Shown: positions 19,701 to 37,179 of the stretch, piece after piece
Numbering within the stretch: the first letter of the stretch is position 1
How the letters are laid out: each line of letters begins with the position of its first letter
NCBI GenBank assembly: GCA_039024555.1
Contig: JBCCQQ010000008.1
Location: forward strand, 72,736-136,735
Length of the DNA stretch: 64,000 nt
Source: Cyanobacteria bacterium P01_D01_bin.156
GTDB lineage: Bacteria; Cyanobacteriota; Cyanobacteriia; Phormidesmidales; Phormidesmidaceae
Direction: 5' to 3'
Made by a program: the position numbers and the translations under genes
The notes under the pieces: model-generated
The model's input: only the letters and a program-made list of their open reading frames with translations
Database searches by the model: none
What the model was told of the DNA's origin: nothing

Positions 19701-20041
19701 GCAAATTGGACCGACGAGCGTTACCTCAACCAGAGCAGATGGCCACGGTGGAGAAAGTTTTGCCTAGGAATAGGACAGAAACAGATATTGCTGCCATTTG
19801 GCAAGACATCTTACAAACTGATGCAATTGGTATCTACGAGAACTTTTTTGAACTGGGGGGCCATTCCCTAACTGCCACTCGTATGAATACGCGACTGCGA
19901 AAACAGTTTGAACTGAATTTGCCGCTCCATAGCGTGTTTGAATATCCCACCATTGAGGTCCTTGCAGTGCATATTGATGCCCTGCGCATTGCCGCTAAGC
20001 CCACCGAGTCACCCACTGGCCATAAGGAGATTGAGCTATGA
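16793..20041 (+). CDS. NRPS: C(DCL-type)-A(Ser)-T
   Basis: IEDIYPLSPMQQG start and HHLILDGWS (downstream of E); A code DVWHISLIDK (Ser); GGHSL; C-terminal acidic SLiM GHKEIEL. Confidence 0.92.
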   Translation: MNAVAAKRNSIEDIYPLSPMQQGLLFHTLLSPAAGAYVPQVVVSFSGSLDSQLLQQAWQTILERHSILRTGFYWEQRDQPFQVVQRSVALPWVEQDWSSLSATEQASKLTVLLECNRNESFNLSKPPLMRLTWVSLGKGDLGEERYHLIWCYHHLILDGWSSSQLLKEVFQQYFILTGTLPSLTATPAKPYGEYIAWLNQQDKTAAQNFWETYLSNWQGPTALPILQTERPQTGSLEQQQYVISAEATQVLRDFIQRYKITLNTLIQGALGLLLSRYTNSHDVVFGATCAGRPTELAGSLSMVGLFINTLPVRVQVKPQATAASWLQDLVAQQTETITYEYVSLRELQAWSNDGRSLFDCLLVFESYPVATDMFQGQTAFKLDDIQFNEWTHFPLTLLVSEGKELAITAKYRSEQISPEAITRLLGHLNNVLLGLAQHPKGNLQDIDLLSATEKQQLTEWNLTQANYPLGQVLPNLLALQAKKSPSTTAVIFEDQALTYQELHQKANQLAHHLQSQGIASEHRVGIYFQRALGMTVAILAVIKAGAAYVPLDPEYPAARLHWMLEDADITAVIIDKLLNLPPLPDTVVTIDVTDGSQQPSTEPKHGLTHENSAYNIYTSGSTGKPKGVINTHRGLVNRLCWMQEAYGLTEEERILQKTPLSFDVSVWELFWPLLNGATLVIAKPGGHRDSTYLAKTICQQQITTVHFVPSMLAAFLEDPDVSTCTSLRRVICSGEALSPALQKQFFEKLPNTELHNLYGPTEAAIDVTAWQCQPGEATVPIGRPIANTQIHLLDQDNNSVPIGIPGELHIGGAGVARGYLNRPELTAERFITNPFFEIGSRKLEVGSNTSSSALRSPSSVLYKTGDLARYRPDGAIEYLGRKDFQVKLRGMRIELGEIEAALNDYPGVQQSVVLLQDDVAGGPALVAYLVGIAVGDLKLALTAFLKQRLTEAMIPKVFISMESMPLTSNGKLDRRALPQPEQMATVEKVLPRNRTETDIAAIWQDILQTDAIGIYENFFELGGHSLTATRMNTRLRKQFELNLPLHSVFEYPTIEVLAVHIDALRIAAKPTESPTGHKEIEL
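19305..19375 (+). repeat. Intragenic degenerate heptamers (TTGGAAG-like)x4 and (CTCCGTC-like)x5
   Basis: Seen directly before YKTGD of the Ser A domain. Confidence 0.8.
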
Positions 20042-23000
20042 GTATGACCAGCGATCGCACCATTGAAACATTTCTGGCCGATCTTGCTCGCCAGGACATT
20101 AAGCTATGGCTAGACGGAGAAAAGCTCAGGTGCAGTGGTCCAGAAGAACTGCTTACCGACAACTTTAATGCAGGTCTAAAGGCTCGTAAGGCAGAGATTA
20201 TTGATTTTTTGCAACAGGTACATGGGCAATCGGCCACACCTAAAATTACTCCCGCCGAGCGCAGTGGCTCTCTGCCACTTTCCTTTGCCCAGCAGCGTCT
20301 GTGGTTCCTAAATCAGATGCAGCCTGAGGCGGCAGTGTATAACCTGCCCATGGCCATTGAAGTAGAGGGCTTTCTGGATGTAGCTGCCTTTACCCAGAGC
20401 CTAAACGACATTGTGCGTCGTCATGAAGCATTACGCACTCGATTTATTACCGTTGATGGTCAGCCAACCCAGGTGGTGGAAGCACCGGTCCCCGTCACCA
20501 TAGAAGAAATAAATTTACAGAATAAGGCTGATGTAGAAGCCCAGGTAAGACAGGCGGCGATTGTTGCTGCTCAGAAGCCTTTTGACCTGAGCCAAGACCA
20601 GCTACTGCGGGTTACTCTACTACGCCTAAGTGAAGCAAAGTCGGTGGTGTTGTTCACCCTCCACCACATTATTGCCGATGGCTGGTCCATGGAGATTTTG
20701 ATCCAGGAACTAGGGGCAGGCTATCGAGCTGCGTTGATGGGGCAGATGGCATCTTTACCCAACTTGTCAGTACAGTACGCTGATTTTTCGGTGTGGCAGC
20801 GCCAGTGGCTTCAAGGAGAGAATCTAGAAAAACAGCTTAACTATTGGCGAAATCAGTTAGACATTCACCAGCCTGTGCTGCAACTGCCGACAGATTTTCC
20901 TCGGGCCAGGGTGCAAACCTATCGGGGTGCAGTGAAACAGTTTTCATTGTCACCAGAATTAAGTCAAAAACTCACTGCCCTTGCCCAGAGTCAATCAGCT
21001 ACAGTCTTTATGACTCTACTGGCGGCATTCAAGGTACTGCTTTATCGGTATACAGGCCAAACGGACCTGGTGGTGGGCACACCCATCGCCAATCGTCATC
21101 GCGCCGAGGTGGAAGGGCTGATTGGATTATTTATCAATGTGTTGGCGCTGCGATCGCAACTCTCTCCCCAAGCTGGTTTTCAAGATCTCCTAGCTCAGGT
21201 AAAAGCCATTACTCTCAATGCCTACGACCATCAAGATCTTCCCTTTGAGAAGTTGGTGGATGAGCTGCAGCTAGAGCGAGATTTAAGCTACAGCCCTCTA
21301 TTTCAGGTCAAGTTTCGTCTGGAAAATGCCCCCCAAGAGACTCTCAGCTTACCGGGGCTAACCTTTAAGCGACTGCCCCAGGCGGTGACCACCGCCAAGC
21401 TAGACCTCAGTGTCGATCTATATGAAACTCCCAACGGCATTGTCGGTGGCTTTGAATACAACTGCGATCTGTTTAAGTCGGAAACCATTCAGCGGATGGT
21501 GCACCATTTTCAAATAATTCTGGCCTCCATTGTGGCTGCTCCAGATCGACCCATTGCTGAGCTCCCCATGCTTACCGAAACTGAACTGCAGCAACAGCTG
21601 GTGGACTGGAACACTACGGAGAAACCCTATCGCCAGAATAGCTGTTTCCACTATCTCTTTGAAGAACAGGTAGAGAAAACGCCTGGTGCGATCGCACTTA
21701 TCTACGACGACGGAACCACTCCTCAACAGCTGTCTTACCAGGAACTCAACCAGCGCAGCAACCAGCTAGCCCACCGCCTAATCTCTCTAGGCGTCAGCCC
21801 AGAAAAGATTGTCGGCATCTGCGTAGATCGCTCCCCTGAGATGATTATTGCTATGCTGGCTGTGCTTAAGGCCGGTGGAGCCTACCTACCCTTAGATCCC
21901 ACCTATCCGCCAGAACGTCTGGACTACATGCTCTCCGACGCCCTGGTAGCGGTACTGCTTACCGAGAGCAAATTCTCTTTTGACCTAAGCGCTCAGCGGG
22001 TAAACCTGGATACCCAATGGCCCCAGCATCAGCCCAATACTAATCCTGAGCATATCGTTGGCCCCAACAATCTGGTCTACCTGATTTATACCTCCGGCTC
22101 CACCGGTAAACCTAAAGGTGTCCTGATTCCCCACAGTGGTTTAGTCAACCTAACAGAAGACAAAATTCGCATCTGTCAAGTACGCCCTGGTGACTGCATC
22201 CTACAATTCTTCTCCTTTAGCTTTGATGCCTCTATTCCAGAAATCATCATGGCATTGGCCACAGGTTCAAAGCTTTTGCTGGCTCCGGCCACTACCATGC
22301 TGCCTGGCCCCGACCTGAAAAATCTCATCCAGCGGCACAACGTCACCCACATCACGATTACTCCGTCTGCCTTGGTGAGTGTACCCTACGATGATTTTCC
22401 AGAGCTGCGCATGGTGCTAGTCGGTGGCGAAGCTCCCAGTCCAGAACTCATTGAAACCTGGAGCCAAAACCGGCTATTTATCAATGCCTACGGTCCCACT
22501 GAAACCACTGTAAATGCCAGTATGGTGCCCTGCGGCAATGGCCATCCGGTGGAACCAACACTGTTACCCAGCACTAACAAACAGCTGTATATCCTGGACA
22601 ATAATCTCCAGCTGTTACCCATCGGCGTACCCGGTGAGCTACACATCGCCGGAGTGGGATTGGCCCGTGGGTATTTGAATCGTCCCGATCTAACAGCAGA
22701 ACGGTTTATTGCAAACCCATTTGCCAGGAAGCAGGGGAGCAACCGGAAGTCGGAAGTCGGAAGTCGGAAGTCGGAAGTCCACCCATCACCCACCCTCTAT
22801 AAAACTGGTGACCTTGCCACATACCTCCCCGATGGTCGCATTAAGATTCTGGGTCGCATCGACAATCAGACTAAGATTCGTGGCTTCCGCATAGAGCTGG
22901 GAGAAGTTGAGCGCATTCTACAGTCTCACCCAGATATCAAAACCAGCATTGTTGTGGTTAGAGAGGATAATGGCAACAAGCGACTGGTGGCCTACGGTGT

Positions 23001-23472
23001 GCCGATGGTGGCTAACGGCGCAACACCAACAGAAATTCGACAGTTTGTGGCAGAAACACTGCCTCAGTATATGGTGCCGTCAGTGTTTATATGGTTGCCT
23101 GCTCTACCGTTAACGCCCAACGGTAAGGTAGATACCAAGTCGCTGCCTGCACCCACTGTTGTCTCTAATCAGGAACAGGTAGCTCCTCGCAATGCCACAG
23201 AACAGACTTTGGCTGAGATTTTTGCCCAGGTGCTCTCTTTAAAGTCTGTAAGCATCTACGATGATTTCTTTGATTTAGGTGGTCATTCCTTACTGGCCAC
23301 ACAGCTTGTGGCTCAACTTCTCAATCAGTTCTCAGTGGAAATCACGGTGATTGATTTATTTGAGGCTACCACCGTAGCAGGGTTAGCCCAGCGGGTAGAG
23401 CAAAAACGACGCTTAGCTCAGATGCAGCTACCGGTAGACAGCGATGAAGAACGGGAGGAGATTGCATTATGA
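20038..23472 (+). CDS. Terminal NRPS: beta-hairpin docking (TubC_N-like)-C-A(Tyr-like aromatic)-T, no TE
   Basis: N-terminal FLADLARQDIKLWLDGEKLRC docking domain; HHIIADGWS; A code read as DAPTLGAVNK; GGHSL; ends in EEREEIAL with no TE or R domain. Confidence 0.88.
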   Translation: MSMTSDRTIETFLADLARQDIKLWLDGEKLRCSGPEELLTDNFNAGLKARKAEIIDFLQQVHGQSATPKITPAERSGSLPLSFAQQRLWFLNQMQPEAAVYNLPMAIEVEGFLDVAAFTQSLNDIVRRHEALRTRFITVDGQPTQVVEAPVPVTIEEINLQNKADVEAQVRQAAIVAAQKPFDLSQDQLLRVTLLRLSEAKSVVLFTLHHIIADGWSMEILIQELGAGYRAALMGQMASLPNLSVQYADFSVWQRQWLQGENLEKQLNYWRNQLDIHQPVLQLPTDFPRARVQTYRGAVKQFSLSPELSQKLTALAQSQSATVFMTLLAAFKVLLYRYTGQTDLVVGTPIANRHRAEVEGLIGLFINVLALRSQLSPQAGFQDLLAQVKAITLNAYDHQDLPFEKLVDELQLERDLSYSPLFQVKFRLENAPQETLSLPGLTFKRLPQAVTTAKLDLSVDLYETPNGIVGGFEYNCDLFKSETIQRMVHHFQIILASIVAAPDRPIAELPMLTETELQQQLVDWNTTEKPYRQNSCFHYLFEEQVEKTPGAIALIYDDGTTPQQLSYQELNQRSNQLAHRLISLGVSPEKIVGICVDRSPEMIIAMLAVLKAGGAYLPLDPTYPPERLDYMLSDALVAVLLTESKFSFDLSAQRVNLDTQWPQHQPNTNPEHIVGPNNLVYLIYTSGSTGKPKGVLIPHSGLVNLTEDKIRICQVRPGDCILQFFSFSFDASIPEIIMALATGSKLLLAPATTMLPGPDLKNLIQRHNVTHITITPSALVSVPYDDFPELRMVLVGGEAPSPELIETWSQNRLFINAYGPTETTVNASMVPCGNGHPVEPTLLPSTNKQLYILDNNLQLLPIGVPGELHIAGVGLARGYLNRPDLTAERFIANPFARKQGSNRKSEVGSRKSEVHPSPTLYKTGDLATYLPDGRIKILGRIDNQTKIRGFRIELGEVERILQSHPDIKTSIVVVREDNGNKRLVAYGVPMVANGATPTEIRQFVAETLPQYMVPSVFIWLPALPLTPNGKVDTKSLPAPTVVSNQEQVAPRNATEQTLAEIFAQVLSLKSVSIYDDFFDLGGHSLLATQLVAQLLNQFSVEITVIDLFEATTVAGLAQRVEQKRRLAQMQLPVDSDEEREEIAL
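22743..22777 (-). repeat. Intragenic heptamer (TCGGAAG)x5, the inverted form of CTTCCGA
   Basis: Encodes RKSEVGSRKSEV before YKTGD of the last A domain. Confidence 0.95.
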
Positions 23473-26400
23473 TCTCCCTCAAAGACTTCATCGGCTATCT
23501 TAAACCCCAGGTGGTAGCAGAACCGCTGATTCGTCAATGGTATGCCTGGAGCTATCTGATTCCACCAGCCACAGCGGCTCGGTATCTAACAGAGTCGCAG
23601 CTGAAAATTATGGAATCCTTTGTGGCTGCGCCAGAGGTTCATGCTTCTACGCTGAGAGATCCTGCTATGCAGGGAGGGCCTTTTATTAACCATGGACCTG
23701 GCCGAGTGGGTGAGGTCAAGACACTCTTAGAAAAGAGTAAAGCAGAGCAGGCAAAACTATTGGGTTTGAGCGATGCGATCGCAACCCTCACTCACCAGCT
23801 GAACCAACATCCTCCAGGCAAATCCCTAGAATCTCTTTATGCCCAGATACCGGAACCCCTCCAAGGCTACGTAGAGCTAGTTTATGATGCCGAAAACAAT
23901 CCATCTATTCGCTTTATTGAGGGTCTGTTGTACCGCAGCGAATATTACAACTCAGCGGACCAAAGTATTGCCTTACGCGTATACGCTAACAGCGACCAAC
24001 GTGCTTTTGTAATGAGCACTCCGCGTCTACCCGATAACGACAGTCTGTTTCTCCCCATCCCTTTTGTAGATTCCCGGTTAGATCAGCTTTTCCAAATGCG
24101 GCACACCCCTAATTCAGTGGAAGCCATGGCTGATTTATTGGAGATTACAGGCTCGAATCGTCCATTCTTTTACAATCTCTTTACCCCTGAAGCACCTAGA
24201 AAAAATCCGTCCTATCAAGATGACGGCGTTAGAATTCGCTACCTAGGACATGCCTGCGTGCTGATCGAAACCGCAGAAATCTCTATTCTCTGCGACCCGC
24301 TAGTGAGCTACGAACATCCTGCGGGAATGGAGCGCTACAGCTATAAGGACCTGCCAGAAACCATTGACTATGCCCTGATTACCCACAACCATCAGGACCA
24401 CGTCATGCTAGAAACATTGCTACAGCTGCGCCACAAAATCAAGCATATTGTTATCCCCAGCAGTCAAAAGGGCTCTCTCCTCGATCCATCCCTCAAGCTT
24501 GCCCTTCAACAAATCGGCTTTTCTCAAGTACGAACTTTAGACGAGCTAGAAAGCATCCCCCTTCCCGATGGTGAAATCATCAGCATTCCTGTTCTGGGGG
24601 AACACGGCGATCTCAATATCTCTACCAAAAACGCCTACTGGATTAACCTCAAGGGTCATTCCATACTGTGTGCCGCTGACTCTAACAATCTTGATCCTAG
24701 ACTCTACAGCCATATCAATCATTTACTGGGTGATCTCGATATTCTCTTTATCGGCATGGAATGCGACGGTGCCCCCTTCACCTGGGCCTACGGGCCGCTA
24801 CTGCCTCAGCCTACTCCCCACAAACAAGCCCAAACCCGTCGCCTTGATGGCTCCAATGCAGAACGAGCTCTTACCCTGGTTAACCAGCTCAACCCGCAAC
24901 AAGTTTACGTCTACGCTATGGGTCAAGAACCCTGGCTTACCTACATTACTTCTATCAATTACACCCCAGATTCCACTCCCATTATTGAATCCAATCAGCT
25001 AGTCAAACACTGTCAACAACAGAATCGCACTAGCGAACGTATGTTGGGACGAAAAGAAATCAAGCTACCCCCGAGCCAGACTAAACAAACGAAAAAGAAC
25101 AACCCCATTCCTGTCCTTTCCGAATTTCGAACTCCGAATTCCGAATTCCAAAGCCCACCGCTCCACCCCTCCACCGCGTCCCTACCCTCGTCATCCTCTG
25201 TCAAATCAATGACTGCTGACACCCTCACCCCCTTCCTCGCCCAACTTCAAAGCCTCGATATTCGCCTCTGGATGGACGGTGATACACTGCGCTGCAACGC
25301 ACCCAAGGGTGCCTTAACCCCAGAATTAACAATTAAACTAAAAGAACACAAACCAGAAATCATTGCCCTACTTAAAAACACCACGGCGCAAACTTCACCC
25401 TCGACACCAGCCAATCCTCAAGCAACATCTTCTGTTCAAGTGCCTGACTGGCGACAGGATCTCATTCTCCCAGCAGATATTATCCCGACTCCTCCGCTCC
25501 ACCACTCCACTACTCCCAAAAATATCTTCCTAACCGGAGCTACAGGATTCCTAGGGGCCTTTCTACTATATGAACTCCTACAACAAACTGATGCGACCAT
25601 CTATTGCCTGGTACGAGAATCTAAATCAGGCCTAGATACACTGGAACAGTGTCTGTCCAGCTATAGAATCTGGCAGCATAGTTTTGCCTCTCGTCTCATA
25701 CCAGTTTCGGGAGATTTAAGTGAGTCGTTTCTAGGATTATCTGAGACCTATTTTGAGGCTCTAACCGAACAAATTGATAGCGTTTATCACAATGGTGCTC
25801 AGGTTCACCATATTTCTCCCTACGCCCAGCTTAAAGCAGCTAATGTAAACGGCACCCGAGAAATTATTAAGCTAGCCTGCCAAGGGCGGCCTAAGTCCTT
25901 GCACTACACGTCCACGCTTAGTGTTCTACCGCCAACGCCGCTGCCGGGACAGGTCAAGCTCTATGAGCAGAGCAACTTGGGAGATTATCCTGTGCCAACT
26001 GGAGGCTACAACCGGACTAAGTGGGTAGCAGAACAGCTAGTGGCACAGGTTCGCGATCGCAACCTCCCTGTTACCATCTATCGCCCTGGTCCTATCTCTG
26101 GCCATAGTCAAACCGGCGTTTTTAATCGCAACGATTTTCTCTATCGGCTGATGCAGGGCTATGTGCAATCTGGCATGGCCCCGGAAGGAGAGATGCCTCT
26201 GGATATGCTGCCAGTGGACTACGTGAGTAAAGCCATGGTCTATTTATCCCTGCAACCCGAGTCCGTGGGTAAAGCCTTCCATCTAATTCACCCAGAATCG
26301 GCATCCTCAAATCTGTTATTTGAAGCATGTCAAAGGGCTGGCTATCCCATCCAGCGGGTGCCCTATGAGCAATGGTTTAAGAAACTAATGCTCATTGCCC

Positions 26401-26633
26401 AGGGAGATGAACAGCATGCATTGTATCCTCTAGTTTCCCTATTCTCATCACGGACTGGTGAGAGCAACGCGGCCAATCAGGCCCTGGAAGTTCCGTTTGA
26501 TACGGAGCAAACCTATACCGGATTGAAAAATGCTCCCTTTGATTTACCACGATTAAATCAATCGTTATTTGATACCTATCTGAAGGCCATGGTTGCAACC
26601 GGTACGTTATCGCCGCCCCCGGTGTTGACATAA
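23469..26633 (+). CDS. Fusion of CmlA-like MBL-fold diiron beta-hydroxylase, beta-hairpin docking domain and NAD(P)H-dependent thioester reductase
   Basis: N-terminal YLKPQVVAEPLIRQWYAW as in CmlA-type enzymes; THNHQDH (HxHxDH), GEHGDL, ADSNN; docking FLAQLQSLDIRLWMDGDTLRC; R-domain IFLTGATGFLG, HNGA, GYNRTKWVAE. Confidence 0.85.
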   Translation: MISLKDFIGYLKPQVVAEPLIRQWYAWSYLIPPATAARYLTESQLKIMESFVAAPEVHASTLRDPAMQGGPFINHGPGRVGEVKTLLEKSKAEQAKLLGLSDAIATLTHQLNQHPPGKSLESLYAQIPEPLQGYVELVYDAENNPSIRFIEGLLYRSEYYNSADQSIALRVYANSDQRAFVMSTPRLPDNDSLFLPIPFVDSRLDQLFQMRHTPNSVEAMADLLEITGSNRPFFYNLFTPEAPRKNPSYQDDGVRIRYLGHACVLIETAEISILCDPLVSYEHPAGMERYSYKDLPETIDYALITHNHQDHVMLETLLQLRHKIKHIVIPSSQKGSLLDPSLKLALQQIGFSQVRTLDELESIPLPDGEIISIPVLGEHGDLNISTKNAYWINLKGHSILCAADSNNLDPRLYSHINHLLGDLDILFIGMECDGAPFTWAYGPLLPQPTPHKQAQTRRLDGSNAERALTLVNQLNPQQVYVYAMGQEPWLTYITSINYTPDSTPIIESNQLVKHCQQQNRTSERMLGRKEIKLPPSQTKQTKKNNPIPVLSEFRTPNSEFQSPPLHPSTASLPSSSSVKSMTADTLTPFLAQLQSLDIRLWMDGDTLRCNAPKGALTPELTIKLKEHKPEIIALLKNTTAQTSPSTPANPQATSSVQVPDWRQDLILPADIIPTPPLHHSTTPKNIFLTGATGFLGAFLLYELLQQTDATIYCLVRESKSGLDTLEQCLSSYRIWQHSFASRLIPVSGDLSESFLGLSETYFEALTEQIDSVYHNGAQVHHISPYAQLKAANVNGTREIIKLACQGRPKSLHYTSTLSVLPPTPLPGQVKLYEQSNLGDYPVPTGGYNRTKWVAEQLVAQVRDRNLPVTIYRPGPISGHSQTGVFNRNDFLYRLMQGYVQSGMAPEGEMPLDMLPVDYVSKAMVYLSLQPESVGKAFHLIHPESASSNLLFEACQRAGYPIQRVPYEQWFKKLMLIAQGDEQHALYPLVSLFSSRTGESNAANQALEVPFDTEQTYTGLKNAPFDLPRLNQSLFDTYLKAMVATGTLSPPPVLT
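25118..25152 (+). repeat. Degenerate heptamer (TTCCGAA)x5 in the hydroxylase-reductase linker
   Basis: TTCCGAA TTTCGAA CTCCGAA TTCCGAA TTCCAAA. Confidence 0.85.
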
Positions 26634-26704
26634 TTTTTGGTTTCGTGCCCACCCTACAGTTTCCTCCTTGCCCCCTTCTCCCCTGCCCCCTTTCTCCTCC
26701 TACC

Positions 26705-27625
26705 ATGACCGAACGTTATACCGACTACAACAATTGGGCCTGGCTCTACAACAAGACCGTGGGACCAGACTATAGCAAGCCTCAACTGGCATTGCTTGAG
26801 AGGGTGTTGTTACCCCACATACCAAAGCAAGGAAAGATTTTAGATTTGTGCTGTGGTACGGGGCAATTGATTCAGCCACTAATTGAGGCTGGATATGATG
26901 TGGTGGGACTGGATGGCTCTGAGGAAATGTTGGCCTATGCCCGGCAGAATGCGCCCCAGGCTGATTTTCTCCTAGAGGATGCCCGCACCTTTGATTTGGA
27001 AGCCAGTATTGACGGTGTATTTTCCACCAGCGCTTCTCTCAATCATTTGATGAGTTTGCCAGAGCTGACCCAGGTATTTGAGCGAGTGTATCGGGCTCTG
27101 AAACCAGACGGCATATTTGTGTTTGACCTCAACCATCCAGAGCAGCTAGAACGCTGGTGGCAAGGGCAACCCACTGAAGGTGAAATTAGTCGCTACTTTG
27201 CTTGGATGATTACTCCTCGCTACGATTCCAACTCTGCTGAAGGAGCATTTGAAGTCACTATTTATCAGTCTTCCGTAAAATCCTCTGGCCTGATTAGACA
27301 GCTGTTGTTTCCCATTAAAAGGATGCTGTATACGCTATTAAGCCGCCCCCGCTTTATCGGTCTACGTCTGCGGGTTCTACAAAATTTTGCTGGCTTTGAA
27401 CCCCACTGGGAACAGAAAAAACTTAGCTATCCCGTCAAGGGCCACGAGATTAATGCTGTTATTACAGCACTTCAGCAGGTGGGATTTAAGGACATCTCGC
27501 TACAAACTATTGATGGTTCTTCAAAAATTGACGATCGCCATTCCGCCCATTTTATTTGCCAGAAATCGTCCTCTACTTGTTTAAATACAACGGCTGAAAC
27601 AGTCTCGGTTATGGATTCACCATAG
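26705..27625 (+). CDS. Class I SAM-dependent methyltransferase (cluster tailoring enzyme)
   Basis: ILDLCCGTG, GLDGSEEML, LKPDGIFVFD. Start moved to ATG 26705 because the upstream in-frame stretch is C/T-rich repeat DNA. Confidence 0.85.
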   Translation: MTERYTDYNNWAWLYNKTVGPDYSKPQLALLERVLLPHIPKQGKILDLCCGTGQLIQPLIEAGYDVVGLDGSEEMLAYARQNAPQADFLLEDARTFDLEASIDGVFSTSASLNHLMSLPELTQVFERVYRALKPDGIFVFDLNHPEQLERWWQGQPTEGEISRYFAWMITPRYDSNSAEGAFEVTIYQSSVKSSGLIRQLLFPIKRMLYTLLSRPRFIGLRLRVLQNFAGFEPHWEQKKLSYPVKGHEINAVITALQQVGFKDISLQTIDGSSKIDDRHSAHFICQKSSSTCLNTTAETVSVMDSP

Positions 27626-27695: not shown

Positions 27696-29144
27696 ATGAC
27701 CACCACAATTTCCACACAACAACACCTCCAAGGAATCATAGAGCGTTACACTCAGCGTACTGTGAAATCAAAACAACAGGCTGCGGCCAACCGCTCTGTC
27801 GTGGCGGATAAAAGTTCCATTGGGTTTAATTTCTCCCTGGAAACGAAGGAGATGTGCTATCCAGTGGTGGCAGCAAGAGCTGAAGGTTCTCGACTTTGGG
27901 ATATTGATGGCAATGAATATATCGATATCCTGATGGGGCTGGGCACCTATCTATTTGGCCACAATCCTCCTTTTATTCGAGAAGCACTAGAAACCCAGTT
28001 AAAAAAAGGAATTCCCATCGGACCCCAAGCAGAGTTAGTGGGAAACGTTGCCCAACTAGTGAGTGCTCTCACGGGAATGGAGCGGGTCACATTTAGCAAC
28101 ACCGGCACTGAAGCGGTGATGACAGCTGTGCGCATTGCTCGTACGGCTACCAAGCGCAAAAAAATTGCGGTATTTACCAACTCTTACCACGGTCATTTTG
28201 ATGCGGCCCTGTTGCGAGCTCCCCTGAGCGAATATGCTCGCAAAAAGGCAGTAAGAGTAACCGGCTCTAAACCCTGGCTAGCGCCAGTTAACTGGCTACT
28301 CAAACAAAAAATTAACAGCCGTGCAGTACCGGCGGCTCTGGGTATTCCTCCAGCGGTAGCGCAGGATGTCATGGTTTTAGAATACGGCAATCCTCAGTCA
28401 TTAGCTGCCATTAAAGCCAACCGCAACAAGCTAGCAGCGGTTTTAGTAGAGCCTGTGCAAAGCCGCTGCCCGGAGCTACAGCCTAGAGATTTTTTACAGG
28501 AACTGAGATCGCTAACCAGCCAAATTGGTACAGCTCTAATTTTTGACGAAATGGTTACCGGCTTTCGGGTGCAACCTGGCGGTGCCCAAGCCCACTTTGG
28601 GATTCAGGCCGATCTCGCCACCTACAGCAAAATTGCAGGCGGTGGTTTACCCCTATCCATCATCGCCGGTAAATCTCGATTTATGGACCACATTGATGGT
28701 GGCCAATGGTGCTACGGTGACGACTCCCAGCCCCAGGTAAACACCACTTTCTTTGCTGGTACTTTCTGCAAACATCCTTTGGCTCTGGCCACGGCCCATG
28801 CTACCCTCAGCCGACTAAAGGCAGAGGGGACTGGGTTACAAACAGATTTGAACAAGAAAACAATTGATCTGGTAAATCGGCTTAACAGCTTTACCTCAGA
28901 GGCGCATTTGCCCGTGAGGTTTACCCAGTTTGGCTCCTTCTTTGCGATCGCACTCACCCAAAGCAAAATCTCCCCTCTGGCCACCAATCTACTGTCCTAC
29001 CATCTGCTCAACCGCGGCATCCACCTACGGGGCGGCGACAAAGGCGGTTTTCTCTCCACCGCCCATACCACAGACGACATCCACAAAATCTATACCGCCT
29101 TTTGCGAAGGTCTTACCGCCCTCCAACAAGCGAATTATATCTAG
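27696..29144 (+). CDS. PLP-dependent class III aminotransferase (GSA-aminomutase-like, as in PKS/NRPS AMT domains)
   Basis: WDIDGNEYID, NTGTEAVM, YHGH, LIFDEMVTGFR, YSKIAGGGLP (PLP lysine), FAGTF. Confidence 0.9.
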   Translation: MTTTISTQQHLQGIIERYTQRTVKSKQQAAANRSVVADKSSIGFNFSLETKEMCYPVVAARAEGSRLWDIDGNEYIDILMGLGTYLFGHNPPFIREALETQLKKGIPIGPQAELVGNVAQLVSALTGMERVTFSNTGTEAVMTAVRIARTATKRKKIAVFTNSYHGHFDAALLRAPLSEYARKKAVRVTGSKPWLAPVNWLLKQKINSRAVPAALGIPPAVAQDVMVLEYGNPQSLAAIKANRNKLAAVLVEPVQSRCPELQPRDFLQELRSLTSQIGTALIFDEMVTGFRVQPGGAQAHFGIQADLATYSKIAGGGLPLSIIAGKSRFMDHIDGGQWCYGDDSQPQVNTTFFAGTFCKHPLALATAHATLSRLKAEGTGLQTDLNKKTIDLVNRLNSFTSEAHLPVRFTQFGSFFAIALTQSKISPLATNLLSYHLLNRGIHLRGGDKGGFLSTAHTTDDIHKIYTAFCEGLTALQQANYI

Positions 29145-29189: not shown

Positions 29190-29408
29190 ATGACCCAATC
29201 CACCGAAATCACCTATCGCGTAGTTATCAGCGACGAAGAACGTTACTCTATCTGGCCTGAATATAAAGAAATCCCTTGGGGTTGGAGGGCTGAAGGAAAA
29301 CTGGGTACTAAACAAGAATGTCTTGATTATATTGGCGAAGTTTGGACCGACATGCGCCCCCTCAGTTTGAGAAAAGCCATGGCGAAAAACCAGCAAGATA
29401 ATGATTAG
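29190..29408 (+). CDS. mbtH: MbtH-like protein
   Basis: [28 protein letters not shown]. Confidence 0.95.
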
Positions 29409-29949
29409 TCAGATTGCATCCACAATAGCTACTACCCATACCAGGGAAAGCTCGGTGACGCCAGAAACGACGCTTAATATGACGACACCAGATAACGCAC
29501 CCAAGACCCTGGATTTACTCGTGCCCTGGGATATTCCCCTGGAGTACTCGTTGAACGATACAGAAAAACAGAAGATTCAAATTATATTGGAACAGCTTTT
29601 GTACGCGTTAAATACAAAAGATTCTTCCCAGGCACTCGCTCAGGTAGAACAATTACTCACCACTCTGCCCATACCCAACACTAAGCTAGCCCAGGTGCAG
29701 TCCACCAAGACCTCTCTCAGCACCGACGATGTGGACGACTACGACCAGTACTTTGGTATTAATCATGTCCAAACTGACGAGACTTCCCTTTGTCTGGTGA
29801 GAGGACTATTAACTAACTGTCATCGATTTATTGCACTTTGCCATCAAAATTCTCAGCTTTCATCCAAGCATGTTGAACAACAAAAACAGGGGTTTATTAG
29901 CTATATCCATCTACTAGCAAGAGTCTTTTACCTGGAAGCGTTGTCATGA
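29401..29949 (+). CDS. Hypothetical helical protein coupled to the downstream heme protein (start uncertain)
   Basis: 182-aa ORF overlapping mbtH and sharing an ATGA with 29946; no recognised motif. Confidence 0.6.
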
Positions 29950-30509
29950 ATCAGACCACCCCCCAAGCCATCTGGCAAGGATTTCACTGGTCCTTTTTTA
30001 TCAATGTTCAGGGCTTAATTATCAGCCTTAGACGGTTTGAAGCTCAACTGGCCCTTGGCAACCTGGACCAAGCCGAACAAGAGTTAGTGACTGCAACAGA
30101 CTTGATGTTGGCATCTGGGGCCTCTATGGAACTGGCTGGCAGCTTTAGCCGGGATGCCTACGAACAAGATGTACGACAGTCCATGACACCCCCTCAAGTA
30201 CGCGCCGACAACTTTAGCGGTCTAATGTCGTGGGAACATGCGGCTCTGATGCAGATTTGGAAGCGACTGCGGCCAACATTTGAGGCCCTGCCCAATGAGT
30301 TAAAGCCACAACACGATAAGTTTGTACAAGCCTATTTTGAACTTGCCAAGTCTCATCGTGCTATCTGTGAAAAATTTGGTGGCAGCGAGGGTGGCAGCCT
30401 TCGATTTGGCCAAAGCTGCGCAGTCGCCACCCTCGATAAATTTAAAGATAGTCGTCTGGGATTAATTGCCCCTAAGCCACGGTCTGATTGTCCCTTTCAC
30501 ATGAATTAA
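29946..30509 (+). CDS. Putative heme-dependent aromatic (tyrosine) hydroxylase, SfmD/TyrH-like
   Basis: H98-x38-H137-xxx-C141; the Y...VR.SM....FSG segment and H..I..K...G.SL tail resemble the histidine-ligated heme aromatic oxygenase family (compared from memory). Confidence 0.65.
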   Translation: MNQTTPQAIWQGFHWSFFINVQGLIISLRRFEAQLALGNLDQAEQELVTATDLMLASGASMELAGSFSRDAYEQDVRQSMTPPQVRADNFSGLMSWEHAALMQIWKRLRPTFEALPNELKPQHDKFVQAYFELAKSHRAICEKFGGSEGGSLRFGQSCAVATLDKFKDSRLGLIAPKPRSDCPFHMN

Positions 30510-30639: not shown

Positions 30640-30684
30640 AAAATATTTTGCATAAACAATTTAACTGACCTTACATTTCAAAAC

Positions 30685-31747: not shown

Positions 31748-31777
31748 AGGAATTAAAAATGGAAAGCTACATACATT

Positions 31778-32367: not shown

Positions 32368-32389
32368 TGGAAGGTTCTCCCAAAGACTT

Positions 32390-33199: not shown

Positions 33200-33256
33200 A
33201 TTACCTTCGAGATTTAACGGATACTAAGAATTCAATTTCCATAGAGCTAAGCCCAG

Positions 33257-33652: not shown

Positions 33653-33912
33653 AAATTCATAACCTCTAGTTCTAAAATCCTGAGTTCTGTCTGTTCTTTC
33701 AGTCCGTATAAAATTCTTATCCTTGTAGTATCAAACATAAAGGTTTTACCGTTGCATCTAGCTCTGAATCAGCCATTCACGGCTCATAGTTCATCAGCTG
33801 AAATCCAGCAAAATAAAAAACTCTCGACGTATTATCTATAACAATCTTTTAACTCTGTCATTAGGAAAGAAAGTAGATTCTCCATAGCATTGCTCACATC
33901 TTTTACCTAGTC

Positions 33913-34341
33913 CTAAACCGCTCTTTGAAAGACCATCCTAACTGCTCGTCCTTCTTCACCCCAAGGGGCAATATTAGTCATTTGCAGAACCAAACTACCG
34001 TCCGGTCTCTTCGAGAGCTTACTGCGCCAACCCCAGGGAGGACCTGAGGGGTCACCATAGGAATAGTGCACAGTGAAAAGGCCCCAAGCTTCTGCCAAGT
34101 CTAGACATTGTACTGGTGTTTTCTGATGCCAACTATCTACCCAAGTAGCACTACTTTCATGAAATGTAAAAGACCCTGTTTTTATTTCGTCCTCGTAAAC
34201 CCATGTATAGGAAAGAACATTCGCCTCTATTTGCAGAGTGCATTCACTAACATCAGCGTTATTACCGGCAGGATCAAGCCACAACTCAGCTGTACCTTTC
34301 CACTTCGTTTCCTGAAAATCATTGAGCCATAATTGAGCCAT
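33913..34341 (-). CDS. Hypothetical beta-rich protein (DUF1579-like)
   Basis: WKGTAELWLDP, WVDSWH, PPWGWR, MTNIAPWGEE; family assignment tentative. Confidence 0.6.
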   Translation of the reverse strand: MAQLWLNDFQETKWKGTAELWLDPAGNNADVSECTLQIEANVLSYTWVYEDEIKTGSFTFHESSATWVDSWHQKTPVQCLDLAEAWGLFTVHYSYGDPSGPPWGWRSKLSKRPDGSLVLQMTNIAPWGEEGRAVRMVFQRAV

Positions 34342-34402
34342 TTTACATATCCTTCACGAATATTATCTGCTGCTTTTAGCGTCACAGTTATGCTTGGTTA
34401 AG

Positions 34403-34768
34403 CTACAGATTGTTTCCAATCCTCCACAACACACCCGTCGGATCCGTCAAGGTAAAATCACGCATTTTCCAGTCTCTATCTTCTGGGTTACCAAGCTTGA
34501 CGTTATATTTTTCTACGACTTGTTTGTCGCTAATTCGCTGCCACCAGTCATTGGCACTCTCCACGAGCAGATGCATCATAAAATTATCAGCATGCTCTTT
34601 AACATAAAAATTTTGAAGAAGAAAGCTACTACTTCCTGCTGTGAAATATGCCAAATCACTATCAGACCACTTTAATTCAAAGCCAATATCAACATAAAAT
34701 TTTTGGCTTAGGTTAAAATCTCTAGATGGCACGAACGCCTTTGCTTCGATTGTTTGATAGTTTGGCAT
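34403..34768 (-). CDS. VOC/glyoxalase family protein
   Basis: AFVPSRDFNLSQKFY..IGF, PEDRDWKMRDFTLTDPTGVLWRI. Confidence 0.85.
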   Translation of the reverse strand: MPNYQTIEAKAFVPSRDFNLSQKFYVDIGFELKWSDSDLAYFTAGSSSFLLQNFYVKEHADNFMMHLLVESANDWWQRISDKQVVEKYNVKLGNPEDRDWKMRDFTLTDPTGVLWRIGNNL

Positions 34769-34886
34769 TTTCCTTATCCCTTTAAATATTATCTCAACAA
34801 CATAACGATCAGATTTACGTCCACAAGGTGGCCTCTCTACATCCCCCCCTTTTCAGCACTCTTTGCACCATATCTAGCAATCGTAG

Positions 34887-35462
34887 TTAGGCCTTGATGT
34901 AACCCAGATAAAAACAACAAAGTTCTTCATTACTATTGAATGGAACCTCGTCATCAAATAGTCTCTCAAGTTTATCCACCGTCCCATGCCATCCTGCAGT
35001 GACTGAGGACCAAATTGTTCCAGGGCCACCAGACTGTTGTTCAAATTTCGTCGGCATGCCATTAATAGCTTCGGAAGCAAGGACAGTCGGCCCAAAAGTA
35101 TCCAAAAACATAAAAGTTGTTTCATTGTCACCCTTGGCCTCTAACTCGAATCTCATTCCTCCCGTTCCACGATAAGAGCCTCTTGGCTCATTGAGAGCGA
35201 TATAACGAAGTGGCTCATAGCTGGTGATTGTATTATCCCAATGATGACTGAAGAGGCCATCAATCCTGAGATTAAACACCCTAGGAGGCACTATCCACCA
35301 CTTTTCTAGACCTTCTTTAGTGCTTACCGCTTGCCAGACCTGCCCAATAGGCGCTTGTACATACCTCACCCAGCACATCGCATAAGCAGTTATCAAGTGG
35401 CCTACTCGGTCAAAACGTATCTCTAAAGTACTTTCCATAAGGCCCTGATGCCTTTCGTTCAA
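34887..35462 (-). CDS. SRPBCC/AHSA1-like domain protein (start uncertain)
   Basis: RYVQAPIGQVWQAVSTKEGLEKWW and C-terminal AGWH..VDKL helix. Confidence 0.65.
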   Translation of the reverse strand: MNERHQGLMESTLEIRFDRVGHLITAYAMCWVRYVQAPIGQVWQAVSTKEGLEKWWIVPPRVFNLRIDGLFSHHWDNTITSYEPLRYIALNEPRGSYRGTGGMRFELEAKGDNETTFMFLDTFGPTVLASEAINGMPTKFEQQSGGPGTIWSSVTAGWHGTVDKLERLFDDEVPFNSNEELCCFYLGYIKA

Positions 35463-35743
35463 GGATATATACTTACGAGGCTACTCAAACTTACCACACA
35501 ATAAAACATTTGTACTGCCAAAAGTGTTTACCATGAAGCGTACTGTGTGAAACGTTATGATGACAAATCTTGCGTCAAAGCAATGACCTTCAAAGTCAGT
35601 TGCATAGCGCAGTATATTTTCAACTCCAGATTCGTCAGTATCCGCAAACGCTAATATAGCAAATGAGCCTACACATAGGTCTGTTGAATGAAGTGATCAT
35701 ATCGAGCATTCGCACCTTCAGACGCGCTACGCTTAGCACTTAT

Positions 35744-35762
35744 ATTGAGAATAATTCTACCT
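35744..35762. promoter_or_regulatory. Fur-like box upstream of tyrosinase
   Basis: ATTGAGAATAATTCTACCT, with a complete ATTGAGAAT half-site about 90 nt before the start. Confidence 0.5.
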
Positions 35763-35853
35763 ATGAGCGTGCTAATTTATAGAGCTATAGCTCTTCGGAT
35801 GCTCCGTTTGTGAGAGCCATACCTGTTCGTTTTTAGTCTAACGACATTTTTCT

Positions 35854-37179
35854 GTGCTTCAAAGACTGAATTCTACATTTTCGTTTTCAAAGAAGTTAAC
35901 GCTGAGTTTTTTTATTGGCGTGATTTTGGTAGTTGCGATCGCAATCATTGCCCTTTCCAGGCTGCACGATAATTCTGGAGTTTACTATCCTCCTCCCCCA
36001 AATGCCACCGGTCCGGAGCTGGTTTTTCCAAATCTTTCCCAGTCTCAAGAACGCCATATACGTAAAAGCGTGACCGCGCTAACCCCAGAAGAAAAGTTCG
36101 CTTTTGTTACTGCCGTCAACACTCTACAATCAACATATCCTGAGGGCTCGCGGCTCAGCCTATACGAACAGTTTGTAGTTCAACATATTTTAACCATGGG
36201 ATTTCGTCAGAGCTTGGGAGCCACCGGTCCGGCTCGCGGGAATCCCGCCCACAGTTATCCAGCGTTTTTGCCTTGGCATCGACAGTTCCTACTCGACTTT
36301 GAGCAGGCGCTGCAGACAGTCGATGAAAGTATCACTATTCCTTACTGGGACTGGACCGATCCAGATGCGCTTAACGTGATGCTACAAGAAGATTTTTTGG
36401 GAACATCAGGGCAAGGTACCTTTGTTGAAGTTCCTGAACACGGACGCTTTGAGGGCGGTGAGGTAAAAACTAGCCCATTCGCAGCATGGCAGCTCAACGA
36501 AACTCTCCACTTTGATGCCATGACATTAGAGTCGTTAGGACCTCATCTGCTCAGGTTTTCTACGTTGCCGCCGTTTGATAGCTATCCCTTACCTCAGAGT
36601 GAAATCAACAGTCTCTTTAATACCGACAACTATGAAGTGTTTAATGCACTGATTGAAGGTGCACTAGTGCCGGATAATAATGCTAACTCAGATTATGTTC
36701 CTGGTTGGGCGCTACATGCCTTTGCCCACTCTATTATCGGTGGTAGTCAAGTCGATTGGACTGATTGGAACCAAGGGATTGCGCACCAAACGGATATTTT
36801 AGGCACAATGGACAGCATCCCCTGCTCTCCTTACGATCCTATTTTTTGGCTACATCACGCCAATGTGGATCGCCTTTGGGCGCAGTGGCAAGATGACGGA
36901 CACAGTGGTGATGCATTTTATCCAGCAAGCGAACGACCCTTTGGTCATAATCTCTCTGATCCAATGTGGCCCTGGGACGGTGGGCTATCTTCTCCCGGTA
37001 ACTACGGTCCTAAAAATGCAAACCTGACAGAGATGTTTACGCCCCCAGCAGCTACCAAGATTGTTAGCGCGCAAGATGTCTTAGATTTTCGTCAGCTAGG
37101 CTATACCTATACAGATTTAGCTGATGGCACAGAAGCAATAGATAAGACAGAGAACCGTGAGATAGTCCCAGCTTTATAA
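35854..37179 (+). CDS. Tyrosinase (type-3 dicopper oxidase) with N-terminal membrane anchor
   Basis: CuA region QH...AHSYPAFLPWHR, IPYWDW; CuB region HAFAH...DPIFWLHHANVDRLW; hydrophobic N-terminal helix. Confidence 0.92.
   Translation: MLQRLNSTFSFSKKLTLSFFIGVILVVAIAIIALSRLHDNSGVYYPPPPNATGPELVFPNLSQSQERHIRKSVTALTPEEKFAFVTAVNTLQSTYPEGSRLSLYEQFVVQHILTMGFRQSLGATGPARGNPAHSYPAFLPWHRQFLLDFEQALQTVDESITIPYWDWTDPDALNVMLQEDFLGTSGQGTFVEVPEHGRFEGGEVKTSPFAAWQLNETLHFDAMTLESLGPHLLRFSTLPPFDSYPLPQSEINSLFNTDNYEVFNALIEGALVPDNNANSDYVPGWALHAFAHSIIGGSQVDWTDWNQGIAHQTDILGTMDSIPCSPYDPIFWLHHANVDRLWAQWQDDGHSGDAFYPASERPFGHNLSDPMWPWDGGLSSPGNYGPKNANLTEMFTPPAATKIVSAQDVLDFRQLGYTYTDLADGTEAIDKTENREIVPAL

What the first reader, a model, noticed from the sequence alone, without database searches (positions are those of the whole stretch)
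20038..37179. Complete enzyme set to turn the terminal aromatic residue into a catechol amine or quinolinium chelator on an apparently new thiazole-containing backbone
Seen: a TE-less last module with a Tyr-like A code, followed by beta-hydroxylase/reductase, methyltransferase, aminotransferase, MbtH and an SfmD-like heme protein, with a membrane-anchored tyrosinase 5 kb downstream. Established: the anachelin dihydroxy-tetrahydroquinolinium chromophore was proposed to arise from a C-terminal Tyr/DOPA by reduction, amination, N-methylation and catechol-oxidase cyclisation; the pyoverdine chromophore is closed by the tyrosinase PvdP. Inference: the product is polyketide-Ala-thiazole-Gly-D-Ala-Ser-(modified Tyr), released as an aldehyde, transaminated, N-methylated, ring-hydroxylated and oxidatively cyclised, possibly with an extra beta-hydroxyl. 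The residue order differs from anachelin (Thr-D-Ser-Ser before the chromophore). A saframycin-type Pictet-Spengler fate of the aldehyde is an alternative.
Basis: partly seen in the sequence, partly recalled or inferred. Interest (0 to 1): 0.88.

Follow-up and report, generated by a model that had tools for sequence, protein, structure and literature searches.

The report
Hydroxylated Dmaq-type cyanobacterial siderophore pathway
These genes are the known enzyme set that builds the iron-binding catechol tail of the siderophores anachelin and fabrubactin, here with two extra enzymes (a hydroxylase and a membrane-anchored copper oxidase) that point to a modified and still unisolated chelator, probably the unidentified second siderophore of the model cyanobacterium Nostoc PCC 7120.

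Summary
The genes are real and sit where stated. They form the known Dmaq (dihydroxy-tetrahydroquinolinium) cassette of anachelin and fabrubactin: a DOPA-type module (code DAPTLGAVNK), reductase, methyltransferase, aminotransferase, MbtH and a split SfmD-like peroxidase.

The backbone is not new. Gly-ketide-Ala-thiazole-Gly-D-Ala is collinear with Agrobacterium fabrubactin-type clusters. The nine-gene peptide line matches relatives in Nodularia, Gloeocapsa and, by inference, the Nostoc PCC 7120 cluster all2649-all2641, whose product is still uncharacterised. Upstream of the window lie a fatty-acyl starter, an FbnE-like monooxygenase and TonB uptake genes, which predict two alpha-hydroxy acids plus the catechol.

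Two additions were not found in the papers searched. (1) A CmlA-type beta-hydroxylase is fused to the reductase in 39 of 80 related loci; its iron ligands are invariant and it tracks the DOPA module, predicting 4-hydroxy-Dmaq. (2) The tyrosinase belongs to one clade found beside Dmaq cassettes (14 of 80 loci), but it is missing from a sister genome with the same cluster, so it is an accessory oxidase.

Verdict: new variant of a known kind.

The parts
1..1537 (+). 3' end of PKS4 (KS-AT-KR-ACP, starts upstream of the window); KR with degenerate NADPH motif, predicted source of the second alpha-hydroxy acid
   Evidence: 45% identical to A. fabrum PKS AAK89721.2
1534..8901 (+). NRPS C-A(Ala)-T-Cy-A(Cys)-Ox-T: Ala-thiazole
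   Evidence: 47% over its length to a 2399-aa A. fabrum NRPS
8898..16796 (+). NRPS C-A(Gly)-T-C-A(Ala)-T-E: Gly-D-Ala
16793..20041 (+). NRPS C-A(Ser)-T with a C-terminal docking peptide
20038..23472 (+). Terminal NRPS module: TubC_N dock-C-A(DOPA/Tyr type, DAPTLGAVNK)-T, ending in a conserved acidic docking peptide (EEREEIAL)
   Evidence: same code in A. cylindrica UHCC 0172, Allorhizobium and A. tumefaciens Dmaq modules
23469..26633 (+). CmlA-type diiron beta-hydroxylase (about 23496-25064) - TubC_N docking domain (25233-25376) - thioester reductase (25521-26606)
   Evidence: iron-ligand motifs invariant in 37 of 37 aligned domains
26645..27625 (+). SAM methyltransferase, predicted N,N-dimethylation of the amine
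   Evidence: 41% and 47% to the cassette MTs of A. tumefaciens and Allorhizobium
27696..29144 (+). Class III aminotransferase, aldehyde to amine
   Evidence: 58% and 55% to the Agrobacterium/Allorhizobium cassette enzymes
29190..29408 (+). MbtH-like protein
   Evidence: PF03621 E 1e-18
29401..29949 (+).
   Evidence: 29% to A. fabrum C58 AAK89723.1; profile match to the N-half of fused homologues, prob 99.6; top three Foldseek hits are SfmD, weak E 0.03-0.17, TM 0.52
29946..30509 (+). C-terminal half of the split SfmD-like peroxidase (FbnM-like), with HxxxC motif
   Evidence: 6VDP E 1.2e-9; 63% to A. cylindrica PCC 7122 protein P0085, 50% to A. fabrum C58 AAK89722.2
35744..35762 (+). AT-rich imperfect palindrome 110 nt before the tyrosinase start, resembling the palindrome before the first biosynthetic gene; possible Fur box
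   Evidence: 3 mismatches to the symmetrised site, reached by 1 of 600 background upstream regions; only 6 mismatches to the published FurA consensus, reached by 100 of 600
35854..37179 (+). Membrane-anchored type-3 copper oxidase of a clade found beside Dmaq cassettes; accessory
38287..39459 (-). MFS transporter that recurs beside these cassettes
40895..41971 (-). Sucrase/ferredoxin-like (thioredoxin-like ferredoxin) protein that recurs in these clusters
42050..42775 (+). Type II thioesterase
44061..47525 (+). Two ABC transporter genes (ABC_membrane_2/SbmA-like) that recur in these clusters

Best explanation
This is the terminal part of an iron-regulated, fabrubactin-type lipopeptide siderophore pathway. 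Steps: (1) the split heme peroxidase (29401-30509) turns free L-Tyr into L-DOPA [reported for FbnL/FbnM; inferred here by orthology]. (2) A FAAL-acyl-CoA dehydrogenase-ACP protein and two methylating, fully reducing PKS modules build a branched acyl tail; the line then adds ketide*-D-Asn-Gly-D-Val-Gly-ketide*-Ala-thiazole-Gly-D-Ala-Ser [domains shown; residues from recalled specificity codes]. The two starred PKS modules have degenerate KR NADPH motifs, and an FbnE-like flavin monooxygenase converts each into an alpha-hydroxy acid [proposed for fabrubactin; inferred]. (3) The last module loads DOPA. Its C-terminal peptide docks on the TubC_N domain inside the CmlA-dock-reductase protein; the diiron domain hydroxylates the beta carbon of the tethered DOPA and the reductase releases the chain as an aldehyde [architecture shown; target inferred]. 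(4) Aminotransferase and methyltransferase give the dimethylamine. (5) Oxidation of the catechol to the o-quinone lets the amine add to the ring, giving 4-hydroxy-Dmaq. The membrane-anchored copper oxidase speeds this step outside the cytoplasm where it is present; elsewhere air, Fe(III) or the peroxidase suffice [inferred]. The product has six oxygen donors for Fe(III) and returns through the adjacent TonB receptor.
For: Cassette gene order and orthology with Anabaena cylindrica and Agrobacterium clusters. Identical A-domain code in those Dmaq modules. Literature on FbnL/FbnM and FbnE (PMC12971057) and on the anachelin cluster genes Red, MT, AmT, TyrH (PMC4247773). LLM of the MupA/Atu3671 family, 63% to A. 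fabrum AAK89730.1. KR motifs AGDLVDGLG and VGDVEQGLG resemble the four Agrobacterium/Allorhizobium PKS KRs, while the three KRs from salicylate-type clusters keep a glycine-rich motif. TonB receptor, TonB, ExbB, ExbD upstream. CmlA ligands invariant in 37 of 37; 21 fused CmlA domains form one side of a branch against 7 stand-alone ones, 99/100; G240 has the fusion with a different backbone and no Asn module, and G455 has an Asn module without CmlA, so CmlA follows the DOPA module. Tyrosinase: 14 of 80 loci, inside the cluster in Gloeocapsa PCC 7428, 19 linked proteins on one side of a branch, 97/98.
Against: No chemistry or expression data. The fabrubactin paper could not be read, so FbnL/M/E roles are second-hand. 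The target of CmlA is inferred from two contrasting clusters and domain position only. The tyrosinase is not found in 10 of the 14 sampled genomes with a split peroxidase nor in G015, and here it is separated from the cassette by 5.3 kb of unrelated genes. Tyrosinase and FbnM-like identities correlate only weakly (Spearman 0.29, 120 non-independent pairs). PKS1 has an AT without the active-site serine motif, so the tail may be shorter than drawn.
Confidence: 0.6

Rival explanations
1. The product carries ordinary Dmaq. CmlA acts on another residue, or its hydroxyl is lost without trace, so the cluster is just a longer fabrubactin.
For: Clusters without CmlA (11 of 80 loci have C-A-T-R) share the A code and downstream genes, so CmlA is not needed for Dmaq. 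Six of the fully seen CmlA clusters (window, G015, Gloeocapsa, Nodularia, G115, G405) also have an Asn module that could be a target.
Against: G240 has CmlA without Asn and G455 has Asn without CmlA. Iron ligands are invariant. The closest solved relatives hydroxylate carrier-bound aromatic or hydrophobic residues (activities recalled). The docking domain lies between CmlA and R and the DOPA module ends in a conserved docking peptide.
Confidence: 0.2
2. The beta-hydroxyl is eliminated after oxidation, giving a conjugated 1,2-dihydroquinolinium, a pyoverdine-like coloured or fluorescent chromophore, matured outside the cytoplasm by the copper oxidase as PvdP does for pyoverdine.
For: A benzylic hydroxyl on a catechol ring can leave through a quinone methide (chemistry recalled). 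The oxidase is membrane-anchored, forms a dedicated clade and has Ala, not Asn, after the first CuB histidine in 19 of 19 linked proteins against Asn in 9 of 9 unlinked ones. 8 of the 10 tyrosinase loci with a resolvable reductase type have CmlA.
Against: Two tyrosinase loci have no CmlA (L052, L070) and most CmlA loci have no tyrosinase, so the two enzymes are not an obligatory pair. The Asn rule is not strict (PMC8049008).
Confidence: 0.12
3. The copper oxidase has a side role: it boosts DOPA supply, re-oxidises or detoxifies the catechol, or cross-links it in the sheath; it does not close the ring.
For: Dispensable across genomes. Predicted location outside the cytoplasm fits poorly with supplying DOPA but fits recycling or cross-linking.
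Against: Often directly coupled to the FbnM-like stop codon (offsets -3 to +3 in 5 of 14 loci). A tyrosinase-driven ring closure was proposed for anachelin (PMC6562677). This rival concerns only the oxidase and is compatible with the rest of the best explanation.
Confidence: 0.3
4. Saframycin-type Pictet-Spengler chemistry on the released aldehyde gives a tetrahydroisoquinoline.
For: SfmD homology and a terminal reductase.
Against: The last module is 34% identical to renieramycin RenF but 45% to the Agrobacterium Dmaq module; its C domain has a normal HHxxxDG motif; the window's methyltransferase has no match to RenB or RenC; an aminotransferase captures the aldehyde; iron-uptake genes flank the cluster. 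A cluster that does fit this type, G298, looks different.
Confidence: 0.02

Closest known systems
Fabrubactin (fbn) cluster of Agrobacterium fabrum C58 (atu3663-3693; Vinnik et al. 2021, not read; compared through the syntenic A. tumefaciens AF1/95 plasmid cluster whose proteins share 90% clusters with A. fabrum proteins)
   Same: FAAL start, two PKS modules with degenerate KR, MupA/Atu3671 monooxygenase, Gly-PKS-Ala-Cys(Cy,Ox)-Gly-Ala(E), DOPA-type code DAPTLGAVNK, R, MT, aminotransferase, MbtH, split SfmD-like pair, TonB receptor.
   Different: Here: acyl-CoA dehydrogenase in the starter, two extra methylating PKS modules, extra D-Asn-Gly-D-Val, a full Ser module (C-T only in AF1/95), R detached from the last module and fused behind CmlA and a docking domain, and a tyrosinase.
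Nostoc (Anabaena) sp. PCC 7120 siderophore cluster all2649-all2641 (Jeanjean et al. 2008, not read) and its Nodularia orthologue
   Same: Described as nine ORFs, seven NRPS and two PKS, FurA-regulated (PMC4005646). The window's line has seven NRPS, PKS4 and the CmlA-dock-R gene, and the same nine genes in the same order are in Nodularia chucula.
   Different: The PCC 7120 locus itself was not fetched. In Nostocales relatives the starter PKS genes and LLM lie apart from the nine genes, and no tyrosinase was found in N. chucula, G115 or G405. Its product is described as uncharacterised (10.64898/2026.07.24.740629).
[quoted passage not shown] 2014; MIBiG BGC0002532 as listed)
   Same: Dmaq genes: terminal module with reductase, MT, aminotransferase, tyrosine hydroxylase; 63% identity of the FbnM-like half; Ser before the last residue.
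   Different: Salicylate start, intact KRs, no LLM, C-A-T-R without CmlA, no tyrosinase. These were seen in A. cylindrica UHCC 0172, whose cluster lacks the Thr-D-Ser gene; the PCC 7122 locus itself was not fetched.
Pyoverdine maturation by tyrosinase PvdP
   Same: A type-3 copper enzyme outside the cytoplasm linked to a Tyr-derived catechol quinoline chelator (PMC12971057).
   Different: Analogy only; the window protein was not compared with PvdP, and a separate heme peroxidase supplies the catechol here.
Leptochelin and fatuamide clusters
   Same: Marine cyanobacterial PKS-NRPS metallophores with thiazol(in)e rings.
   Different: Both start from salicylate; leptochelin ends in a TE; no Dmaq genes were seen in the passages or gene table read.

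Membership tests
Dmaq cassette (anachelin/fabrubactin) | Two-protein SfmD-like heme peroxidase FbnL + FbnM | tested here: met
   the names FbnL/FbnM for the C58 accessions are inferred from gene order
Dmaq cassette (anachelin/fabrubactin) | Terminal module with the DOPA-type code of Dmaq clusters, no TE | tested here: met
   DAPTLGAVNK in the window, A. cylindrica UHCC 0172, Allorhizobium, A. tumefaciens
Dmaq cassette (anachelin/fabrubactin) | Thioester reductase, N-methyltransferase and class III aminotransferase | tested here: met
   R keeps TGATGFLG and YxxxK
Dmaq cassette (anachelin/fabrubactin) | Reductase in cis on the terminal module (C-A-T-R), as in the A. cylindrica and Agrobacterium clusters | tested here: not met
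   R is on a separate CmlA-dock-R protein; this is the variant feature
Dmaq cassette (anachelin/fabrubactin) | Product contains Dmaq | not testable with these tools
   needs LC-MS/NMR
Fabrubactin-type siderophore cluster | FAAL start, FbnE-like LLM and two PKS modules that do not reduce the ketone | tested here: met
   KR inactivity is read from motifs, not assayed
Fabrubactin-type siderophore cluster | Module-for-module identity with the fabrubactin line | tested here: not met
   two more PKS modules and D-Asn-Gly-D-Val, full Ser module
Anachelin-type cluster | Salicylate starter and reducing PKS modules before Thr-D-Ser-Ser | tested here: not met
   FAAL start, different residues
CmlA-type diiron beta-hydroxylase | CmlA_N + metallo-beta-lactamase fold with HxHxDH, E, D, E iron ligands | tested here: met
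CmlA-type diiron beta-hydroxylase | Hydroxylates the carrier-bound residue of the DOPA module | tested here: inconclusive
Type-3 copper tyrosinase / catechol oxidase | Six conserved copper histidines | tested here: met
   28 of 28 aligned proteins
Type-3 copper tyrosinase / catechol oxidase | Monophenolase versus diphenolase-only activity | tested here: inconclusive
   Ala at HisB1+1 hints at catechol oxidase, but the rule has exceptions, including an Ala tyrosinase
Saframycin/renieramycin Pictet-Spengler pathway | SfmC/RenF-like terminal module plus tyrosine C- and O-methyltransferases | tested here: not met

The most novel reading that the evidence does not exclude
The commonest cyanobacterial form of the Dmaq pathway makes an undescribed chelator, 4-hydroxy-Dmaq or its dehydrated pyoverdine-like form, on a hexadentate photolabile lipopeptide. 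It is the unidentified second siderophore of Nostoc PCC 7120 and is also encoded in bloom-forming Nodularia and in Crocosphaera watsonii. In a subset of strains a dedicated membrane-anchored catechol oxidase closes the ring outside the cytoplasm: this would be the enzyme long proposed for the anachelin chromophore and a convergent counterpart of PvdP.
Probability: 0.3. Interest if true: 0.75.

Novelty: new variant of a known kind. Interest (0 to 1): 0.5.

Why it matters
Few cyanobacterial siderophores are structurally known (24 structures in five families in a 2026 preprint, none of fabrubactin type), and the PCC 7120 cluster has been known genetically since 2008 without a product. The analysis gives an explicit structure to look for, with a diagnostic +16 or -2 shift on the Dmaq fragment. 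It also supplies natural pairs of clusters with and without the hydroxylase and with and without the oxidase. The oxidase clade is a concrete candidate for the ring-closing step proposed for anachelin. The core pathway and most of the backbone are already known, which caps the surprise.

Tried and rejected
1. New thiazole backbone: rejected.
2. My own first guess that the tyrosinase is an unrelated neighbour: rejected. The opposite claim, that it is required, is also rejected. The family search rang nowhere and was only trusted after a positive control.
3. CmlA acting on Asn: disfavoured by G240 and G455.
4. One origin or one loss of the CmlA state on the reductase tree: not shown; the best quick tree needs 6 changes, at least 3 forced by well-supported branches, and the Agrobacterium rows are long-branched.
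5. Fur box: a generic recalled Fur pattern gave 1 match against 0.57 expected; genome-wide 3-mismatch sites are only mildly enriched (52 against 32-35); the published FurA consensus does not single out the tyrosinase site. Kept only as a weak hint.
6. Sequence searches of the FbnL-like ORF in Pfam, NCBIfam and PDB found nothing; only profile and fold comparisons did.
7. Co-evolution of tyrosinase and FbnM-like protein: weak.
8. Complex prediction of the CmlA domain with the last A domain: tool not available, no result.
9. Sequencing runs: no RNA holder listed; no reads were laid.
10. Vinnik 2021 and Baude 2016 are not held. Searches found no paper describing a CmlA-reductase fusion or a linked tyrosinase in Dmaq clusters, but Vinnik's genome-mining section and supplements may do so.
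Full report
1. What is in the sequence. The window is the last 64 kb of contig C8 of G000. The last NRPS (20038-23472) is dock-C-A-T without a TE. The next gene (23469-26633) joins a CmlA-type diiron hydroxylase, a TubC_N docking domain and a thioester reductase. Then come a methyltransferase, a class III aminotransferase and MbtH. ORF 29946-30509 matches only the C-terminal half of SfmD. The ORF before it (29401-29949) is the N-terminal half: both halves are fused in several cyanobacterial homologues, the profiles match with probability 99.6, and the three best fold hits of its model are SfmD, though with weak E-values. The tyrosinase-family gene starts 5.3 kb later, behind a lower-GC stretch of small unrelated genes.

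2. The rest of the cluster. It starts 43.6 kb upstream of the window: FAAL-acyl-CoA dehydrogenase-ACP, two PKS with DH-cMT-ER-KR, PKS3, a MupA/Atu3671-family monooxygenase, NRPS modules with Asn(E), Gly, Val(E), Gly codes, then PKS4 (code-to-residue assignments recalled). An AMIN-domain TonB receptor, TonB, ExbB, ExbD and an MFS gene lie just before it. PKS3 and PKS4 have degenerate KR NADPH motifs, like the four PKS KRs of the Agrobacterium and Allorhizobium clusters and unlike the three KRs from salicylate-type clusters.

3. The cassette is the known Dmaq pathway. Reitz et al. [quoted passage not shown] Calteau et al. (PMC4247773; passages) assign Red, MT, AmT and TyrH genes to Dmaq in A. 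cylindrica. The window's halves are 29% and 50% identical to A. fabrum C58 proteins AAK89723.1 and AAK89722.2, the monooxygenase 63% to AAK89730.1, and the C-half 63% to the A. cylindrica protein. The last A domain has the code DAPTLGAVNK, as in A. cylindrica UHCC 0172, Allorhizobium and A. tumefaciens. Vinnik 2021, Jeanjean 2008, Rondon 2004 and Gademann 2005 were not read; I know them only through citing papers.

4. The backbone is not new. The A. tumefaciens AF1/95 plasmid cluster reads FAAL-T, PKS, LLM, Gly, PKS, Ala-Cys(Cy,Ox), Gly-Ala(E), C-T, C-A-T-R. Six of its eight proteins looked up share a 90% cluster with listed A. fabrum members, including the 2399-aa Ala/Cys NRPS (five clusters directly; one search lists A. 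fabrum members for clusters 1, 4, 5, 7 and 8, and the PKS falls in cluster 4). The window's Ala/Cys NRPS is 47% identical to it over its length. The full nine-gene order Asn(E), Gly-Val(E), Gly, PKS, Ala-thiazole, Gly-Ala(E), Ser, DOPA, CmlA-R is in G015, Nodularia chucula, G115, G405 and Phormidesmis priestleyi Ana; near-identical versions are in Gloeocapsa PCC 7428 and Chroococcus FPU101, and a scrambled one in Crocosphaera watsonii WH 8501. Nostoc PCC 7120 has a FurA-regulated nine-ORF cluster, all2649-all2641, of seven NRPS and two PKS (PMC4005646; passages), called orthologous to Nodularia and C58 clusters and still without a structure (PMC6562677; 10.64898/2026.07.24.740629; passages). 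A CmlA-dock-R protein annotated 'polyketide synthase', BAB74340.1, probably its all2641 (assignment partly recalled), matches the window protein in all three domains. Leptochelin (passages) and fatuamide (sections 6 and 7) start from salicylate and do not match.

5. First addition: the hydroxylase. The genome scan confirmed 126 relatives and returned the best 80. Of these 80 loci, 40 show CmlA (39 in one frame with the reductase), 11 show C-A-T-R, 6 show a reductase of neither type or cut off, and the rest are too short or rearranged. In 401 cyanobacterial genomes, 14 have a strong split-peroxidase match, and 12 of these have a roughly 1000-aa CmlA frame, which none of the other genomes has. 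The two samples overlap in part and kin are not independent. The iron ligands are invariant in 37 of 37 domains, and 21 fused domains group apart from 7 stand-alone ones (18 of the 36 locus rows were used). The DOPA module ends in a conserved acidic peptide in 12 of 12 loci printed, the expected partner of the internal docking domain (pairing recalled). G240 has the fusion on an unrelated backbone without Asn; G455 has Asn without CmlA. The simplest reading is beta-hydroxylation of tethered DOPA, which ends up at C4 of the ring. Earlier notes of this scan reached the same view; they are not independent evidence.

6. Second addition: the oxidase. It lies within 10 kb of the cassette in 14 of 80 loci (7 of the 35 with at least 9 kb downstream), in five cases abutting the FbnM-like stop, and inside the cluster in Gloeocapsa PCC 7428. 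In the 401-genome sample 12 genomes match it; the four best are all among the 14 cassette genomes. Nineteen linked proteins form one side of a branch (97/98) against nine others, four of which sit between trpA and trpB. Two of the 19 were counted as linked only through neighbouring TEII and ferredoxin-like genes on other contigs, and one partial protein was left out. All 19 have an N-terminal hydrophobic stretch and Ala after the first CuB histidine; all 9 others have Asn. This hints at catechol-oxidase activity, but the rule has exceptions (PMC8049008; passages). Against a required role: no match in G015 (97% complete, same cluster), A. cylindrica UHCC 0172, N. chucula, C. watsonii, Leptolyngbya JSC-1, G115, G405, G088 or G337 (positive control). 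A palindrome 110 nt upstream resembles the one before the FAAL gene (1 of 600 background regions as close), but it is not close to the published FurA consensus (PMC8634477 passages gave no letters).

7. Mechanism. Tyr to DOPA by the split peroxidase; assembly of acyl-ketide*-D-Asn-Gly-D-Val-Gly-ketide*-Ala-thiazole-Gly-D-Ala-Ser-DOPA; monooxygenase conversion of the starred units to alpha-hydroxy acids; beta-hydroxylation and reductive release by the docked CmlA-R protein; transamination; N,N-dimethylation; catechol oxidation and ring closure, helped by the oxidase where present. Domains, orthology and co-occurrence are shown; every chemical step is inferred. The saframycin route is unlikely.

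8. Verdict. What remains is a widespread, apparently unstudied hydroxylated variant, a dedicated accessory oxidase, and a testable structure for the PCC 7120 siderophore. Searches found no description of either addition, but the library lacks most subscription papers, including the fabrubactin paper and its supplements. Other papers seen as passages only: PMC11837247, PMC12283262 (reference only), PMC13451346, 10.64898/2026.07.30.741596, PMC3610870. Interest 0.5.

Noticed in passing
L198 (G298:C4:37001-50400): Saframycin/renieramycin-type gene set in a cyanobacterial genome: Ser/Gly NRPS, C-A-T-R 43% to RenF over its length, full-length SfmD-like protein 36% to RenD, O-methyltransferase 51% to RenB, UbiE-type methyltransferase, MbtH.
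   Followed up: partly
L129-L134 (Crocosphaera watsonii WH 8501, 4.555-4.675 Mb): Nearly all modules of this siderophore line, with CmlA-dock-R, LLM, FAAL and TonB receptor, scattered among transposase-like ORFs in an open-ocean nitrogen fixer. Integrity not checked.
   Followed up: partly
L087 (Symploca sp. SIO3C6): DOPA-type module after a PKS, followed directly by the split peroxidase and TEII, with no reductase, methyltransferase or aminotransferase within the locus: possibly an uncyclised DOPA product.
   Followed up: no
L097 (Hyella patelloides) and L095 ([Phormidium] LEGE 05292): Odd cassette forms: DOPA module extended by E and C domains before CmlA-dock-R, without adjacent MT or aminotransferase (L097); stand-alone dock-R without CmlA (L095).
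   Followed up: no
L193-L197 (G121, G348, G381, G350, G393): Full-length fused SfmD-like proteins in cyanobacteria outside Dmaq cassettes, some beside A-T or A-T-R proteins and a decarboxylase-like gene.
   Followed up: partly
G000:C8:33034-40623 (upstream of the window): PKS1 acyltransferase has GYGRG instead of GHSxG, as in G015 and Nodularia chucula; probably inactive and complemented or skipped.
   Followed up: no
L121-L123 (Anabaena cylindrica UHCC 0172): Anachelin-like cluster with a single Ser module and no Thr-D-Ser gene, so a shorter analogue than anachelin.
   Followed up: no
window 30510-35850: Lower-GC (41.5%) variable stretch: DoxX, methyltransferase, two glyoxalase-fold proteins, DUF1579-like and AHSA1-like genes; only DoxX is shared with G015.
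   Followed up: partly
window 47674-58532: TPS-domain secreted protein, CHAT-TPR, DUF928, CHASE2 hybrid kinase and a receiver-kinase gene in one + strand run; an IS66 transposase fragment at 63196-63750.
   Followed up: no
G000:C8:1294-20785: Three very large - strand ORFs (1393, 1645, 3310 aa) next to the TonB receptor; similar-looking large ORFs flank the cluster in G015, Nodularia and Calothrix.
   Followed up: no
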